Shown: positions 43,101-49,100 of the stretch, piece after piece | Numbering within the stretch: position 1 is the stretch's first letter | Layout of the letters: the number at the start of each line of letters is the position of its first letter | DNA from: an uncultured Acidimicrobiales bacterium | GTDB lineage: Bacteria > Actinomycetota > Acidimicrobiia > Acidimicrobiales > SZUA-35 | Reading direction: 5' to 3' | NCBI GenBank assembly: GCA_937922805.1 | Contig: CALAJV010000005.1 | Coordinates: 567 to 64,566, forward strand | DNA length: 64,000 nt | The notes under the pieces: generated by a model | The model's input: only the letters and a program-made list of their open reading frames with translations | Told to the model about the DNA's origin: nothing | Databases searched by the model: none | Made by a program: the position numbers and the translations under genes

Positions 43101-46100
43101 CGCGGATCTCGCGCCCGGTTTCGACAAGTTCGGCTATGTCGTTTGGAAGCGGCTGACTTGGCTCGTGCTGAGCTAACACTTCCAAATCTTCATGGTAGGC
43201 ATCGTGCCACATCCAGAACGCCTGGCTTAGCTCATCAAACTCTTCCGGCCAGTTGTCCCGAGGCCCATACACCCGACGCAGGATCTCGACAATTTCACTA
43301 ATCGCTTCGCCCGAGTGGTTAGATAACTCATCCGCCTCAGCCCACGGACTGATACTGAGATTTTCCGTCGGCGATTCGGTTCCATTCGTCGCTGAATTAG
43401 TAGCTAGGGGATCGTCGAGAACGGCCGCCGGACCTGATTGGCTTTGGTTTCCTGGTTGGTCCCGAAACACAACATTTCCCGGCGTCACGCCGAGTTCGGC
43501 CAAGGCTGCTTTTACCCTGTCTTCGAGAGCTCGCTCGTTTCCGAAACCAGGGTTAGGAAGTTCTAAGTCGGAGCCACTCCGAAAACCGGCTCTGAACATC
43601 TCGCTCGCCAGATCAGCGAAACCGATAGCGTCCAGTGGCTGGCCCAAGCGGTTGAGAAGAGAGCCATTGCTATCTACAGCACCACCAACTACGAATCGAC
43701 CTGGTTCAAGATCAACCGGGCGAGCAGTAAGGTTTACCCCACCACGATACACAGTTGCTCCCGGTGGCATGTGGCTCAGCGGATCCAGCTCTCGACCTAG
43801 CGGGCCAATCGTTGCCACTACTTCACCAGTCGACGCTTCGCTCGACTCAAGAGGTTCTTGGGCGCCCCCCGCGTTGGTGTCATTTCGATCGCTGAGCTGT
43901 TGGGCTTCGACCAACAAGTCCCGGCCGCTGTCGAGCAGATCATCAGCTCGTTGCCCTATAACGGCTACTTGATCGAGCTCTGTCAACGAGTCGATATCGA
44001 CGACAAAAGTCTTGGCAGTTGCCACGAATTGGTTGATTTTTGTGATCAAAGCTGGATCACCAGCAAGGTCTTTCTGGCCTACCAAGGTAGCGAGTTCCTG
44101 TGCAACGAGGTCGAGTTTGGACGCCGACGATCGTAGATGAGATAGATCATTTACCGCTGCGGTGTTCTCCGGCGTATCATCGAACTCGCCGCGGTAGAAC
44201 AAAACCCGAACCGATAGTGCCTCTTCAAAGGATCGGGAACTAGGTAGTGGTGAGACGTTGCGAATGTCGCCGTAGCCGTAGTCGAGTGCCATTTGGCCAG
44301 TAAACGTTGACGCTGCGGCCTGTTCCGGAGTTAGCCCCGCCCTGATCCCCGCTTTGAACGTTTCGAGGTTTGTCGGAAGTGTTGATCCCCAGAGGCCCCG
44401 AATCGCGGTAACATCGCCGGCCCATTCCATTAACCGAGCGAACAGCTCAGTACCGGTAAACCGGCCGTTGGCTCGCATCCCGATGGTAAGAATGCCGGCA
44501 TCGATCTTGCCCGTCACGTATGAGCCCTGTCCATCGTTGATTTCTAAGCTAGTTGCGGTGTTCTCCTTCATGAAATCATCGATATTGCAAGGTGCGTTGT
44601 GCACTAACACGTCGCGAGTTCCGGTATGAACGGTGAAGGTGTCCGGCCCGGAAGTGTCCAACTCCCAAACCAAAGTCGGCGCCGGGTTGGACATGGCAAC
44701 GCTGGCAACTTTAGCCACCCCAGCTGGCGTTAGCAGATAGTCGCCGGGAAGAACGTCTTCAAGCTCAACCCACGAACCATCAGAAGCAACCCAGAACAAG
44801 TGATGATCGGTAGCACTAACTTGTGAACCGTCCGTTAGGCCAACAGTGCCCATGACCCCATCGTCAACGTGAGACCACTGAGCGAGAACAACCTCGTCGG
44901 CAAACAGTCCGGTTGTTGGATCGCCGGCTAGCACTCGGTCACCGGCAGCAACATGTTCGATCGGTCGCAATGATCCGTCCGCCATACGCACAAGCGTTCC
45001 CGTTGGGAAGCTGTTGCAATCGGGCTCCCCAGTTGTCGCTCCGTCGGTGTCACCCGAATCAGCGCGATCAGCGGCCGTACGCCTTCGATAGTTAACCTCT
45101 TGGAGTAATCCTTCACCCGCGCTAAGGAGCTGTTCGCCTTCACTCTCTAGAACGTCAATGTCGACGCTTTCCGGGTCGTCGATGTCGAGAACGCTGTATC
45201 TGTAGGTCCAAACTTCGAGCTGGAACTGATCAACCCGTTTGGCCAGGTTAACGCTTGGCGTATCGTCGGTAAGTATAAGTTGCCGGACTATCTCGGCATC
45301 TAAGTCGGTCAGCTGGCCTGCGTATTGACGGAGCCGGGCAATCTCAGCCGACGCCGGTAGGTCGGCCTGACTCTCTCGAAGTCGAGGGGTAAAGGGTGCT
45401 TCGGCAGGGGTGCGATCAAAGGCTAGTTCTGCTCGGCGATACGCGCCCGGTTCCCCTTCTACATCGACAATGTGAACCTCAGTGAATCCGTTGCGAGCCG
45501 ATAGTTTGCCAGTAAAGGTAGCGGCCGCCGCTTCTTCGTGAGTTTTACCCTGACGAAGCTCGGCATTGAACGTATCGAGATTGGCTGGCATTCTCATTGT
45601 CCACGTTGCCCGCACCCCGTTCACTGGGGCCAATGCAGTCAGCGCTTCTTCGAAGTATTCGGTACCTGATCTTTCTACGGCTTCAATGGTGAGGTGTACA
45701 TACCCATTCCGGTCCTTCCACCCTGAGGCGCCGGCTCCATCTTCATTATCAGCTTCGTACCTGACCCCGTCTGACTCATTGGTACCGGCCTCAGAGTTGT
45801 CGCTATTCTCGCTGCCTCCGGAATCAGTCCGGTCTACTTGGTAACCGTCGGGCCAGAAATACACGTCGACGCCGGTGTAGGATCCACGGGCCCCCTCAAG
45901 TGACTCAAGGTCAACCTCGGCTCTACCGAAGCCAGCCCGAGCGGCCCATTTTCCAGTCGGGGTGCTCAACGCTGCTTCGTTAAGGTCGGACCCGGCCAAG
46001 ACGGACGAGTTGAAAACCTCGGTGTTGGTTGAGGTCAAACCCCAAACCCCTTTGATTCCGTTGATCGGCCCAGAAGAAGATCTAAGACCCGCCAACATCG

Positions 46101-49100
46101 CTTCAAACAGCCGGCCGCCGTCACCCTTTTTGACAGACGTGACATCAAACTTGATGAGTCCGCTATCTCCCACCCGACCGCTAATTTTTGACTTGTTTTC
46201 TAGTTGTGCGACGAACTGACCATTACCGTCGACGCATCCAGCGGGATCACAGAGAATATCGTCACTATCGGGACTGCCGGTTGGTTCGACCGTATCGGTA
46301 TTTTCAGCTGTCTTATCTGGCCCGACACCGCTGTCTGCAAGTTCGTCTATTTGAGTGCCGAGCCTTTCCGCTTCGTCGACCAAGGCTTTCCCTCGGTCTA
46401 CGAGATTGGTCAAGGCGCCGGCATCGTCGGCTGGAGCGGCAACGTTGATGTAACTATTGGCGCTCACGGCGAACTGTTCGACTTCGTCGGCCAACGTCGA
46501 GGACTGGTCGATATTTTTGGTCGCCAACCGGGTTTGAAGACCGGTTGACAACTCCTCAACTGTCTCTTTCATGGACCGTAGTCGAGCGAACAGGGGAACG
46601 CTCATTGACTCGGCGTCGGAGACGTCCATACGCCCTCGGCTGTATCTGACCGACACCTCGGTATATGGACCAGGACCGCCAGCTGGGTCGGTGGTGAGTA
46701 TTTCGACAACGCCGTAGCCGTTGTTAGAGGCCAGTCGCCCGGTGGCGGTGGCTAACGCAGCTAGCTCCTGGCTCATTCCGGCTTCAATTGCGGCATTGAA
46801 ACTGTTTAGGTTGGATGGGAGATCTGGGCCCCAATCACCCAGGATGGTCAACACAGGGCCGTTCCATTCGTTGGCCCAGTCGAAAGCGATCTGAAATAGT
46901 TGTCGGCCGGTTACATCACCGGCGGCGAGCATGCCAAACACCAGCTCACCGTCATCGATCGATGCCGCTAGATCGGATCCCTTTCCGTCCGTTACCTCGA
47001 GTTCACCATCGATGCTGACAGTTGCCACTACGTTGTCGGGCATTTCCGGCCCTAGATCAAGTTGGACACCAAATTCGCTTGCATCAGGATCGAGTTCGAG
47101 GTAGCCGAGTTGCAGTAGGAGCGCTCGCCCGCGAGTTCGCAGATCTTCAATCGTTGCCGAGAACCGGTCAATGGTAGTGATATCGGAAGGATTGGTCACC
47201 CCATACTCAGCGACAAAGCGGGCCACTTCCGATTGAAATGCTTCAACTTCATTCACTAATTGCTCAAAATCTGATGTGTCTTTGGTTTCAATCAGATCGG
47301 TTATGAATAGGTCAAGTTGTTCTAAGCCGACGAAGTCTGTGTTGAGCTGTTCAAGTCGCAAGGCCAAAGCAGCTTGCCCGGGAGTAACTTGATCGGCCGC
47401 GTCGACATAAGGCTCGGCTGGGTTTCGATCGAAGACGATTATGGCTGTGTTGTGCTCACCCACGTTCTCCCCGTCTAGGAACACTATGTGACTGTGTTCG
47501 AAGCCGTTTTCGGCCGCTAGTCGGGCTGCTTCGGTAGCTGCGACCGCTTCTTCGTAGGAGTTGCCACTTTTCAGTTCGCTATTGAATGTGTCTAGTTCTC
47601 CCGCGCCGCCTTTGGTCCAAACTACTTGGATACCTTCAACCGGTGCCAAAGCGGTGAGGGCCTCCTTGTAGTACTCGGCTGCGGGTTTGTTCCCGGGGAG
47701 AAAATTGAGCTCGACGATGCCTTGCAGATTTTTGCTGGCCACTATTCCAGACCCATTGTCGGTTAGGTCCTCGTAGCGTGTTGCTGCGGTTGACGCTCCG
47801 TTGCCGGCACCGTCCGCCAGTTCGCTGCTGTCTTCCAACAGCTGGTCTTGGGTCTTAAGTAGTTCGTCGCTGACCCCAGCCAAGCGGTCTAGTTCAGCAA
47901 TGTTCGTTGGCGTATTAGCAAGCTGGGCTACGTCGATCTGGAACGCGGCCGCTGCGGCCTGGAACTCGTCGGCTTGAACCAGTAGTGCCGGAGCTGCTCC
48001 TGGTCCACCAGTTGAGGCATTGTTCGAGATTCGGTCGAACAGGGACTGGGCACTATCAATAAAGTCGACGGCCTGGCGTTCGAGCTCAGCGAGTCGTGCA
48101 GCGGGAGACACGGCCAGACCAGGAGAAACTTCGGCGTCATCAACGTCAGCGTCGCCGGCATCTGGTGCTGCGTCGGGGTCAGTGATTGCCAAGTATCTTG
48201 CGGTGATTTCTTGACCATTTGCCAGCAGCACATCGCCTCGCTGCTGAACGGGTGGAATCAACTCGGTATCGGTGAGCGCATCTACTTCAAGGACGAAGTT
48301 GTCGACCGCTGCTTCAAACTGTTCGATCTCGGCGGTAAGTTCCGGGTGATCGATGCCCAATTTCCATGCCGCGTCCTTGAATCCCACGGTCAGATCGACC
48401 GCGTCGTCACGAGTGGCGCGGAGGCGGGAAAAGCTCTTAGTCGGAACAGTACCTGGATCAGCATCCGAGGCTGACTCAGAAGCCTCCCCTTGAAAGAACC
48501 TGACCCGCACGTGGTCGTAGTCTCCTGGACTCCCCGACGGTGCCGACGCTACGATTTCGGCTCGATCAAATCCTCGCTCGCCTGCGACCTGACCGGTGAA
48601 CGTTGTGCGAGCAGCATCCTCAGGCGTGATGCCTGCCCTCAGGGCTGCATTGAACGATGTGAGATTTGACCCGGAACCCCATTCGCCAATCACGGCCCGG
48701 ATGGGGCCACTGATATTGTTCAGTGCGTCGAACGCACGATTGAACAGCAAACGTCCGTTTCCTGGCGTTCTCGAAGTGATGTTGAAGATAAACTCACCGT
48801 CTTCGATTCGGGCGTAGATCGAAGATCCCGGCTCCAACGTTTCGGCGTACCCACCATCTTCCTCGATGCAATCATCGCACACGTCGTCGACGCCAATTGC
48901 TAGATCCTCGCCATCTTCTACTAAGTCAACCGGGTCACTAGGTGTAGCGTCCCCCGAGCTAACCTTCTTCATGATTGCTTTGGCTACAACAACGCCGACC
49001 ACGCCGATGGCCACTTCAAACACAATGGCCAAAATGATGCTGCACATCACGCGGCCTGACCATCGGGCAACCCCGGCGGCGTCGCCATACTCTTGTTTAA

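What the first reader, a model, noticed from the sequence alone, without database searches (positions are those of the whole stretch)
44191..48822. Six diverged copies of an unassigned ~110-aa module (family 1) inside the giant ORF
The copies are at aa 2378-2488, 2735-2843, 2995-3106, 3257-3367, 3411-3514 and 3803-3921. They align by eye, for example:
- GNGRLLFNRAFDALNNISGPIRAVIGEWGSGSNLTSFNAALRAGITPEDAARTTFTGQVAGERGFDRAEIV
- SGTEYFEEALTALAPVNGVRATWTMRMPANLDTFNAELRQGKTHEEAAAATFTGKLSARNGFTEVHIV
- FTGTELFARLMEWAGDVTAIRGLWGSTLPTNLETFKAGIRAGLTPEQAAASTFTGQMALDYGYGDI

The copies are diverged at the DNA level, so this is old duplication and not assembly slippage. Copies 1 and 4 are preceded by a CxxC or Cx4C pair (CDDC, CDPAGC), and copy 6 directly follows the Hint domain. 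The position after a Hint domain is where toxin or effector domains sit in polymorphic toxins. Five further in-line copies are unusual.
Basis: partly seen in the sequence, partly recalled or inferred. Interest (0 to 1): 0.7.

Follow-up and report, generated by a model that had tools for sequence, protein, structure and literature searches.

The report
Six in-line Ntox62 toxin modules
A 5,274-residue secreted protein of an uncultured marine-type actinobacterium (Acidimicrobiales) carries six old, diverged copies of a small predicted toxin domain that elsewhere is nearly always the single C-terminal warhead of bacterial "polymorphic toxins" and is followed by a small immunity gene; stringing six of them inside one protein with no immunity gene nearby is an unusual variant of a known weapon type.

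Summary
A profile built from the six copies finds exactly six domains in the giant ORF (40129-55953, minus strand). Leave-one-out scores are 63-99 bits, against less than 10 bits for shuffled sequences. The copies are 36-55% identical at DNA level, and an independent assembly gives the same ORF.

The module has no Pfam, NCBIfam or PDB sequence match, but it is not new. [quoted passage not shown] 2024 (umbrella toxins).

The six-copy profile hits 1,208 protein clusters. In 123 of the best 149, the domain lies at the extreme C-terminus. It sits behind RHS, PT-HINT, ALF, eCIS, PAAR-like or T7SS modules. In 37 of 40 metagenome loci a small co-directional ORF follows it, and these ORFs fall into recurrent families. 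One of these is presumably the published Imm131.

The toxin-domain reading is therefore supported.

Unusual features here:
- Six internal copies, none at the C-terminus.
- Ten three-helix spacers.
- One intact Hint domain.
- Six copies of a second unknown module.
- No recognisable immunity gene in 64 kb.

The fold resembles GNAT acetyltransferases only weakly. The biochemical activity is unknown.

Verdict: a new variant of a known kind.

The parts
40129..55953 (-). Giant ORF of 5,274 aa. It has an N-terminal hydrophobic signal or anchor (aa 30-57), Cys-rich CBM10-like repeats, FN3-like modules, helical and beta-rich regions, a hydrophobic segment at aa 2298-2329, and then a 2,900-aa array of cargo modules.
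   Evidence: The same ORF appears in an independent Logan assembly.
48487..48822 (-). Ntox62-like module, copy 1 (aa 2378-2489). All family-conserved positions are kept.
   Evidence: 88.6 bits against an HMM built only from outside members
47422..47748 (-). Ntox62-like module, copy 2 (aa 2736-2844). It is degenerate: the family-conserved positions N52, T75 and G76 are replaced.
   Evidence: only 50.7 bits against the outside-only HMM
46633..46974 (-). Ntox62-like module, copy 3 (aa 2994-3107)
   Evidence: 81.7 bits
45847..46188 (-). Ntox62-like module, copy 4 (aa 3256-3369)
   Evidence: 75.7 bits
45409..45732 (-). Ntox62-like module, copy 5 (aa 3408-3515). It is the copy closest to outside members (46% identity to P0003).
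   Evidence: 105.1 bits
44188..44520 (-). Ntox62-like module, copy 6 (aa 3812-3922). It lies directly downstream of the Hint domain, and the conserved N57 is replaced by K.
   Evidence: 83.3 bits
44587..45018 (-). PT-HINT autoprocessing domain (aa 3646-3789). It has Cys1, a TDHH block and a terminal VLVHN-AP-C.
   Evidence: Pfam PF07591, E 6.1e-9; residues read from the sequence
40378..48492 (-). Span holding ten copies of a roughly 100-150-aa three-helix spacer: aa 2488-2612, 2607-2740, 2842-2983, 3083-3230, 3497-3646, 3921-4053, 4168-4306, 4390-4509, 4756-4922 and 5020-5192. The spacers separate both kinds of cargo module.
   Evidence: 61-116 bits each. The spacer is absent from the 149 other Ntox62 carriers.
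40168..43776 (-). Span holding six copies of a second unassigned roughly 95-aa module, 'family 2', with the GRGLNLT...FVLVVD motif: aa 4060-4154, 4312-4403, 4510-4603, 4642-4740, 4912-5006 and 5168-5262.
   Evidence: AF2 pLDDT 87. No Pfam hit and no Foldseek hit.
48967..49062 (-). Strongly hydrophobic segment (aa 2298-2329, followed by KK), immediately upstream of the cargo array
   Evidence: Kyte-Doolittle scan, mean 2.9
48868..48879 (-). CDDC pair ahead of copy 1
   Evidence: It is one of only three Cys pairs in the last 2,935 aa.
46234..46251 (-). CDPAGC pair ahead of copy 4
56137..56856 (-). Upstream co-directional MarP/HtrA-like trypsin-fold serine protease with an intact His/Asp/Ser triad. 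It is a possible processing partner; this is inferred only from adjacency.

Best explanation
The six modules are six anciently diverged paralogues of the Ntox62 domain. Ntox62 is a roughly 110-aa alpha/beta domain that serves across bacteria as the C-terminal warhead of polymorphic toxins and is neutralised by a small immunity protein encoded just downstream.

In this Acidimicrobiales protein the warheads are not terminal. They are strung in-line, separated by a repeated three-helix spacer, in the C-terminal half of a giant Sec-targeted protein. The N-terminal half of that protein carries carbohydrate-binding-like and FN3-like modules.

The most likely working model is a multi-warhead polymorphic toxin:
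1. The N-terminal half binds a target surface.
2. The hydrophobic segment, the single PT-HINT domain and perhaps the adjacent serine protease release or translocate pieces of the cargo array.
3. Several divergent Ntox62 variants are delivered together, so a target would need several immunities to survive.

What is shown:
- The copies are real and homologous.
- They belong to a family with toxin-type architecture and immunity-type neighbours.
- Protein-level conservation has persisted despite saturated synonymous sites.

What is inferred:
- That the modules are toxic.
- That they are delivered and processed.
- Their biochemical activity. The fold is weakly GNAT-like, so a small acyl-CoA- or nucleotide-binding enzyme is possible, but no conserved acid, base or nucleophile residue is present.
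For: Distribution of the family:
- The six-copy profile hits 1,208 clusters (E<=1e-3) among 1.84 billion representatives.
- In 123 of the best 149, the domain ends within 15 aa of the C-terminus.
- Carriers have RHS+DUF6531, PT-HINT, ALF, eCIS_core, Tox-PAAR-like, T7SS_signal and TEN_YD-shell modules.

Link to the published name:
- P0046 is WP_219446590.1. [quoted passage not shown] 2024, Suppl. Table 2.
- In that paper Amycolatopsis UmbC proteins end in HINT.1+Ntox62 and are followed by an 89-aa UmbD protein of family 'Imm131'.

Immunity-type neighbours:
- The stand-alone homologues P0160 and P0026 begin with a Hint tail (VLVHNSNC / VLVHNC). Homologous 93-aa and 85-aa ORFs follow them immediately.
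- A truncated Streptomyces copy keeps the same ORF.
- 37 of 40 metagenome loci have a co-directional ORF starting between -37 and +110 nt of the stop. These ORFs fall into recurrent families found in 16, 6, 4, 2, 2 and 2 loci. The two largest families are remotely related (hhalign E 3.9e-5).

Constraint on the six copies:
- Third codon positions are saturated, yet aa identity is 18-45%. Five copies score 76-105 bits against an HMM built only from outside members.
- The ORF stays open over 15.8 kb in two assemblies.

Other support:
- The Hint domain has Cys1, TxxH and HN.
- Precedent: Zhang et al. 2012 record a 13,652-aa Streptomyces toxin 'with multiple toxin domains'.
- Other actinobacterial giants carry one to three internal Ntox62 copies.
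Against: - No homologue of any of the Ntox62-linked small-ORF families exists in the 64-kb window, in any frame. The gene downstream of the giant ORF is convergent.
- None of the six copies is C-terminal, and only one follows a Hint domain.
- Copy 2 lacks three near-invariant positions and scores 51 bits. Outside members score at least 81 bits, with a median of 122. Copy 6 has N57K.
- The hydrophobic segment at aa 2298-2329, followed by KK, could be a stop-transfer anchor. That would leave the whole array in the producer's cytoplasm.
- No Ntox62 member has been shown experimentally to be toxic. None is reported in the papers found. Zhao et al. tested other domains.
- The family has no conserved D/E/H/K/R/C/S.
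- The structural similarity to GNAT is weak: Foldseek E>=0.019 and TM<=0.48. There is no sequence-level support for it.
Confidence: 0.6

Rival explanations
1. Fossil tips. The internal copies are former C-terminal warheads that were buried in-frame as new tips were added. They now serve only as folded spacers or structural beads. At most one module, for example copy 6 behind the Hint domain, is a working toxin.
For: - Copy 2 is degenerate, and all six copies score below the family median.
- There is only one Hint domain.
- The only Cys residues in the last 2,935 aa are three pairs: CDDC, CDPAGC and the pair flanking the Hint domain. The two short pairs sit ahead of copies 1 and 4, as if Hint domains had been lost there.
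- No immunity genes are present.
- The domain is terminal in 83% of relatives.
Against: - Copies 1, 3, 4 and 5 keep all or nearly all near-invariant family positions.
- Protein conservation has persisted despite saturated synonymous sites.
- Copy 6, the one behind the Hint domain, is itself mutated at N57.
- A pure spacer role does not explain why the fold-specific surface motif NLxxFN...TFTG is retained.
Confidence: 0.2
2. Not a weapon in this protein. The Ntox62 fold has been co-opted here for a non-toxic role, for example ligand or cofactor binding, or enzymatic action on an extracellular or intracellular substrate. The giant would be a surface or adhesion protein of a polysaccharide-degrading bacterium.
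For: - No immunity gene is present.
- The protein has CBM10-like and FN3-like N-terminal modules. Neighbouring genes encode a GH5 cellulase and a PL14 lyase.
- The family has no conserved catalytic-type residues.
- The second module family and the spacer are unique to this protein.
Against: - A PT-HINT domain, which is typical of toxin release, lies inside the array.
- The rest of the family has overwhelmingly toxin-type architecture and immunity-type neighbours.
Confidence: 0.12
3. Artefact: a chimeric or mis-assembled ORF, or chance similarity.
For: None was found. The contig is a metagenome assembly.
Against: - An independent assembly has the same 5,274-aa ORF with 3 aa differences.
- The copies share no DNA word longer than 12 nt.
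- Leave-one-out E-values are 1e-19 to 1e-30.
Confidence: 0.01

Closest known systems
Ntox62 C-terminal toxin domain of UmbC umbrella-toxin proteins, with immunity family Imm131 (Zhao et al. 2024, Nature 629:165, Suppl. Tables 1-2)
   Same: It is the same domain family. The six-copy profile matches the C-terminal 110 aa of WP_219446590.1, a listed Ntox62 protein, at E 1.5e-16. Size is the same, about 110-120 aa. Placement directly after a Hint domain is the same for copy 6. The 85-93-aa downstream ORFs I found match the published 89-aa Imm131 in size and position.
   Different: In the published set Ntox62 is a single terminal domain; no 'Ntox62+' architecture occurs. It sits on ALF-repeat UmbC proteins, next to umbA, umbB and umbD genes. 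Here there are six internal copies, no ALF repeats, no UmbB, and no lectin-bearing UmbA. The upstream trypsin-fold protein has an intact catalytic triad. There is no Imm131-like gene.
Giant multi-toxin polymorphic toxins of Actinobacteria, e.g. SACTE_5178 at 13,652 aa 'with multiple toxin domains' (Zhang et al. 2012)
   Same: It is a very large Sec-type actinobacterial protein with more than one toxin-type domain in one polypeptide and a HINT processing domain.
   Different: Here the cargo is six paralogues of one toxin family plus six copies of one other unknown module, on a regular three-helix spacer. I did not examine the architecture of SACTE_5178.
MARTX toxins (multifunctional autoprocessing repeats-in-toxin)
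   Same: They follow a similar principle: several effector modules arranged as beads on a string in one giant secreted protein, to be released by processing.
   Different: MARTX toxins carry different effector types, use a cysteine protease domain and glycine-rich repeats, and occur in Gram-negative pathogens. None of those domains is detected here. This is a resemblance in how the system may work, not family membership.
Rhs/CdiA loci with orphan toxin-immunity cassettes
   Same: Both hold multiple alternative warheads of a polymorphic toxin in one locus. Canonical orphan Ntox62 cassettes with Hint tails exist in Kitasatospora and in metagenomes.
   Different: Orphans are separate truncated genes, each with its own immunity gene. 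Here the warheads are fused in one reading frame without immunity genes, and their DNA is too diverged for homologous recombination.
GNAT acetyltransferase fold (including antizyme)
   Same: All named Foldseek hits in both PDB and BFVD are GNAT-type proteins. The order of secondary-structure elements (beta-hairpin, helix, strand, helices, beta-hairpin) can be mapped onto the C-terminal half of GNAT. That mapping is my inference.
   Different: E>=0.019 and TM 0.40-0.48. There is no sequence or profile support. At about 110 aa the module is too short for a full GNAT, and there is no Q/RxxGxG/A motif.

Membership tests
Ntox62 toxin domain family (Zhao et al. 2024) | Sequence homology to the C-terminal domain of listed Ntox62 proteins | tested here: met
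   The six-copy profile hits P0046 (WP_219446590.1, listed under Ntox62) at residues 1120-1230 of 1232, E 1.5e-16. Only one listed member could be cross-checked. The authors' own HMM was not available.
Ntox62 toxin domain family (Zhao et al. 2024) | Position at the extreme C-terminus of a polymorphic toxin scaffold | tested here: not met
   All six window copies are internal; the last one ends 1,352 aa before the stop. In relatives, 123 of 149 are terminal.
Ntox62 toxin domain family (Zhao et al. 2024) | Cognate small immunity gene (Imm131 or equivalent) immediately downstream | tested here: not met
   HMMs of five Ntox62-linked small-ORF families give no hit in the six-frame translation of the window, nor do BLAST/HMM searches. 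The downstream neighbour is convergent. In relatives, 37 of 40 loci have such an ORF.
Ntox62 toxin domain family (Zhao et al. 2024) | Toxicity on expression, neutralised by the immunity protein | not testable with these tools
   No experiment on any Ntox62 member was found in the literature search.
Polymorphic toxin system (Zhang et al. 2012) | N-terminal secretion or trafficking signal | tested here: inconclusive
   A hydrophobic segment at aa 30-57 is consistent with a Sec signal or anchor. No dedicated signal-peptide predictor was available.
Polymorphic toxin system (Zhang et al. 2012) | Pre-toxin processing peptidase such as HINT just before a toxin domain | tested here: met
   PF07591 PT-HINT, E 6.1e-9, at aa ~3654-3787, directly before copy 6. 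Cys1, TDHH and HN are present.
Polymorphic toxin system (Zhang et al. 2012) | Variable C-terminal toxin domain shared with other scaffolds | tested here: met
   The same domain is found on RHS, PT-HINT, ALF, eCIS_core, PAAR-like and T7SS_signal scaffolds.
Polymorphic toxin system (Zhang et al. 2012) | Adjacent immunity gene | tested here: not met
Umbrella toxin particle (UmbC/UmbA/UmbB) | ALF repeats in the toxin protein, with UmbB and a lectin-bearing, catalytically dead trypsin-like UmbA nearby | tested here: not met
   There is no ALF hit in the giant protein. The upstream trypsin-fold protein is 239 aa, has no lectin domain, and has an intact H/D/S triad.
GNAT acetyltransferase superfamily | GNAT fold with the acyl-CoA pyrophosphate-binding motif | tested here: inconclusive
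   Foldseek returns only weak GNAT hits (E 0.019-0.1, TM 0.40-0.48). Profile searches of PDB and Pfam give nothing significant. hhalign against one GNAT gives probability 0.2%.
MARTX toxins | Cysteine protease domain and glycine-rich RTX-type repeats flanking an effector array | tested here: not met
   No such Pfam domains are detected in the giant protein.

The most novel reading that the evidence does not exclude
The C-terminal half is a self-contained six-plus-six polyprotein. On this reading, the six copies of the second unknown module (family 2, equal in number to the Ntox62 copies) are cis-encoded neutralising or chaperoning partners of the six toxin modules. This would replace the separate immunity genes that accompany Ntox62 everywhere else. 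Toxin and antidote would then be made as one chain and separated only on processing or delivery.
Probability: 0.06. Interest if true: 0.8.

Novelty: new variant of a known kind. Interest (0 to 1): 0.5.

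Why it matters
Ntox62 is widespread: at least 1,200 sequence clusters, on RHS, Hint, ALF/umbrella, eCIS, T6SS and T7SS carriers. It is still biochemically uncharacterised and has no public Pfam or NCBIfam model.

This protein offers six natural, 18-45% identical variants of the domain in one chain, which is useful for defining what is essential in the fold.

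It also raises concrete questions about polymorphic toxins:
- Can warheads work from internal positions?
- How is a producer protected when no immunity gene is linked?
- Are multi-warhead arrays a way to defeat single immunities?

It extends polymorphic-toxin biology to the poorly studied Acidimicrobiales.

Tried and rejected
- **Word-indexed homologue search.** With the six-copy alignment it found nothing. With the C-terminal 3,000 aa it found only a Hint match. With a 40-sequence alignment it found 14 short proteins. The exhaustive representative search was the informative one.
- **Pfam, NCBIfam and PDB sequence searches of the module.** No significant hits.
- **Linked immunity protein hidden in the giant ORF or the window.** Rejected by BLAST, HMM, six-frame HMM and hhalign against the spacers and family 2.
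- **Three-helix spacer or family 2 as part of a general Ntox62 cassette.** Rejected: both are absent from the 149 other carriers.
- **Umbrella-toxin locus.** Rejected: no ALF repeats, and the protease has an intact triad and no lectin domain.
- **Orthologues of the array in JGI metagenomes.** None found, so conservation of the six-copy arrangement across species could not be tested.
- **Match to the nine 'PT' toxins of Nachmias et al.** Motif strings were absent from the one supplement held as text. This is inconclusive.
- **Family 2 structure search.** No meaningful hits.
- **Look-up of the giant protein's contigs.** Failed because of the V/M start residue and the 5,000-aa limit.
- **Pfam census of 62 carriers in one alignment.** The tool failed. 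It was repeated with 49 carriers.

Full report
**1. The observation**

The window holds one 15.8-kb ORF on the minus strand (40129-55953, 5,274 aa).

MAFFT aligns the six segments over their whole length at 18-45% identity. An HMM built from them finds exactly six domains in the protein and nothing else.

In leave-one-out tests each copy scores 63-99 bits against the other five. The best of 500 shuffles scores at most 9.2 bits.

At DNA level the copies are 36-55% identical. Third codon positions are saturated (23-37% identity) and no shared word exceeds 12 nt. Tandem Repeats Finder sees nothing in this region.

The protein collection holds the same 5,274-aa ORF from an independent Logan assembly, with three substitutions. 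The copies are therefore real, old and not an assembly product.

Self-comparison shows that the repeat unit runs on past the 110-aa module into a helical region.

**2. Anatomy of the protein**

A housekeeping gene in the window is 80-82% identical to genes of Acidimicrobiales MAGs. The host is therefore a monoderm actinobacterium.

From N- to C-terminus the giant protein contains:
- a hydrophobic N-terminal segment, aa 30-57;
- Cys-rich 'DPDGDGWGWEN' repeats, one of which passes the Pfam CBM_10 threshold;
- FN3-like repeats;
- helical and beta-rich regions;
- a very hydrophobic segment at aa 2298-2329 followed by KK;
- a 2,900-aa array.

The array consists of:
- six family-1 modules;
- one PT-HINT domain (aa 3646-3789; Cys1, TDHH and VLVHN-AP-C present) placed just before copy 6;
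- six copies of a second roughly 95-aa module, family 2;
- ten copies of a three-helix spacer that separates both module types.

The last 2,935 residues contain only six cysteines, arranged as three pairs. These are CDDC before copy 1, CDPAGC before copy 4, and the pair that brackets the Hint domain. The two short pairs may be scars of lost Hint domains. That is speculation.

Upstream on the same strand lies a MarP/HtrA-like serine protease with an intact catalytic triad. The downstream neighbour is convergent, and there is no small co-directional ORF.

**3. What family 1 is**

The module has no Pfam, NCBIfam or PDB sequence match. This holds whether the copies are searched singly or as profiles of 6 or 40 sequences.

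An exhaustive profile search of 1.84 billion representative proteins gave 1,208 hits at E<=1e-3 and 269 at E<=1e-10.

Among the best 149, 123 carry the domain within 15 aa of their C-terminus. Twelve have more than one copy, up to three. A handful of 3,000-7,800-aa actinobacterial proteins carry it internally.

The carriers have these domains:
- RHS repeats with DUF6531, PT-HINT, ALF repeats and eCIS_core;
- in a census of 49 mid-sized carriers: PT-HINT (8), ALF (3), eCIS_core (2), Tox-PAAR-like (1), T7SS_signal (1) and TEN_YD-shell (1).

This is the signature of a polymorphic-toxin warhead as defined by Zhang et al. 2012.

**4. The family already has a name**

The ALF-repeat carrier P0046 is WP_219446590.1 of Saccharothrix obliqua. 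Zhao et al. [quoted passage not shown]

Their locus tables show Amycolatopsis UmbC proteins ending in HINT.1+Ntox62 (residues 1271-1393). An 89-aa UmbD protein of family 'Imm131' follows at once.

Neither name appears in the body text of any relevant paper in the library. The toxicity tests in that study used other domains. The family is therefore named and predicted to be a toxin, but it is uncharacterised and has no public model.

**5. Independent support from gene neighbourhoods**

- Two stand-alone homologues were examined: Kitasatospora P0160 and metagenomic P0026. Both begin with the last residues of a Hint domain (VLVHNSNC / VLVHNC). Mutually homologous 93-aa and 85-aa ORFs follow them immediately. 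In Kitasatospora a full RHS-Hint toxin gene lies 3.5 kb upstream. This is the classical orphan-cassette arrangement.
- A truncated Streptomyces copy keeps the same small ORF.
- A degenerate-pattern scan of JGI metagenomes gave 40 further loci. In 37 of them a co-directional ORF starts between -37 and +110 nt of the carrier's stop. Most of these ORFs are 82-112 aa.
- These ORFs fall into recurrent families found in 16, 6 (including the three loci above), 4, 2, 2 and 2 loci. Some of the loci are near-identical.
- The two largest families are remote homologues (hhalign E 3.9e-5).

None of these families has a relative anywhere in the 64-kb window, in the spacers or in family 2.

**6. Structure and possible activity**

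AlphaFold2 with only the six copies as alignment gives a confident model (pLDDT 90, pTM 0.83). Its elements run beta-hairpin, long helix, strand, three short helices, beta-hairpin.

Foldseek against PDB and against BFVD returns only weak matches (best E 0.019, TM 0.40-0.48). Nearly all named hits are GNAT acetyltransferases or antizyme. There is no sequence-level support for this.

Family-wide, the near-invariant positions are G10, G24, F28, W45, N52, L53, F56, N57, G63, A69, A70, T73, T75, G76, A79, G83, G99 and F108. No acidic, basic, His, Cys or Ser residue is conserved.

I therefore treat 'small GNAT-like cofactor-binding enzyme' as a lead only. The activity is unknown.

**7. State of the six copies**

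The copies are about as far from each other as from outside members. Copies 4 and 5 have their best match outside the protein. The array is thus either very old or was assembled from different sources.

Against an HMM built only from outside members the copies score as follows:

| Copy | Bits |
|---|---|
| 5 | 105 |
| 1 | 89 |
| 6 | 83 |
| 3 | 82 |
| 4 | 76 |
| 2 | 51 |

Outside members score a median of 122 bits and a minimum of 81.

Copy 2 has lost N52, T75 and G76, and copy 6 has N57K. Copy 4 has L53T and copy 5 A79S; copies 1 and 3 keep all the motif positions.

Protein-level conservation despite saturated synonymous sites, together with an unbroken 15.8-kb frame, argues that the modules are maintained as folded domains. 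Whether each is an active toxin is not known.

**8. Interpretation**

The best-supported reading is a multi-warhead polymorphic toxin: a giant Sec-type protein that presents or delivers several divergent Ntox62 variants. There is precedent for giant multi-toxin proteins in Actinobacteria (SACTE_5178; Zhang et al. 2012). There is also precedent for internal Ntox62 copies in other giants, such as Nocardia nepalensis P0002 with two copies plus Abhydrolase_8.

The main objections are:
- the lack of any linked immunity gene;
- the internal position of all six copies;
- the single Hint domain;
- the possibility that the hydrophobic segment at aa 2298-2329 anchors the array on the cytoplasmic side.

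Hydrophobic segments upstream of the toxin occur in about one fifth of carriers. They are also annotated in UmbC proteins. A role in translocation is therefore equally possible.

The rivals are fossil tips retained as beads, co-option to a non-toxic role, and artefact. The last is excluded.

**9. Novelty**

The domain family is known by name. The architecture looks new as an arrangement, but it lies within the known logic of polymorphic toxins. It comprises six paralogous internal copies on a regular three-helix spacer, six copies of a second unknown module and no immunity gene, in an Acidimicrobiales genome.

I rate it a new variant of a known kind, of moderate interest.

Noticed in passing
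window 40168-43776 (-), aa 4060-5262: A second unassigned roughly 95-aa module (GRGLNLT...FVLVVD...G.F...L..ELA..L..AGF) is also present in exactly six copies. The AF2 model is confident (pLDDT 87). It has no Pfam or Foldseek match, is unrelated to the Ntox62-linked immunity families, and is absent from the other 149 Ntox62 carriers.
   Followed up: partly
window 40378-48492 (-), aa 2488-5192: Ten copies of a roughly 100-150-aa three-helix spacer (helix B motif 'QF...F...V..L') separate both module families. The spacer is unique to this protein among the carriers examined.
   Followed up: partly
window 44587-48879 (-), aa 2359-3789: The last 2,935 residues contain only six cysteines, as three pairs: CDDC, CDPAGC and the two Cys flanking the Hint domain. 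The short pairs sit ahead of copies 1 and 4 and may be scars of deleted Hint domains.
   Followed up: no
window 48967-49062 (-), aa 2298-2329: A strongly hydrophobic 32-aa segment followed by KK lies directly upstream of the cargo array. It could be a stop-transfer anchor, which would place the array in the cytoplasm, or a translocation helix. About 19% of other carriers have a hydrophobic segment within 400 aa upstream of Ntox62.
   Followed up: partly
window 56137-56856 (-): A co-directional upstream gene encodes a 239-aa MarP/HtrA-like trypsin-fold protease with an intact His/Asp/Ser triad. It is a candidate processing enzyme for the giant protein. Unlike UmbA it has no lectin domain.
   Followed up: partly
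window ~53500-55800 (-), aa 60-830: The N-terminal part of the giant protein has several Cys-rich 'DPDGDGWGWENG..C' units, one of which passes Pfam CBM_10, and three larger Cys-containing repeats (aa 445-501, 621-677, 755-811). FN3-like repeats follow at aa ~830-1150. Short DNA tandem repeats lie at 54286-54342 and 55589-55643.
   Followed up: no
window 39230-40081 (+): A convergent 283-aa ORF directly downstream of the giant gene has two internal repeats ('...RYWSDEDQQWQETY...' / '...RQYWNPDEASWQDTF...') and no Pfam or NCBIfam match.
   Followed up: no
window 22362-23597 (+), 33514-35316 (-), 36288-38504 (-): Neighbouring genes encode a PL14 polysaccharide lyase, a Pro-rich extensin-like/SKN1-like protein, and a GH5 cellulase with two repeated N-terminal modules. 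This suggests a polysaccharide-degrading lifestyle.
   Followed up: no
L008 6001-6546 (Streptomyces sp. NPDC055299): An N-terminally truncated 89-aa Ntox62 remnant retains an intact immunity ORF of the same family. This is a typical decayed toxin with a surviving orphan immunity gene.
   Followed up: yes
P0002 (WP_420775494.1, Nocardia nepalensis, 7,788 aa): This giant protein has two internal Ntox62 copies and a C-terminal Abhydrolase_8 domain. NCBI names it 'GntR family transcriptional regulator', which is probably a misannotation. P0125 similarly combines Abhydrolase_8, an internal Ntox62 and C-terminal HTH domains.
   Followed up: partly
P0011, P0016, P0020, P0024, P0059, P0093, P0098 (about 320-420 aa): A subgroup of short proteins carries two tandem, divergent Ntox62-like domains. 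Duplication of this domain within one chain therefore recurs outside the window.
   Followed up: no
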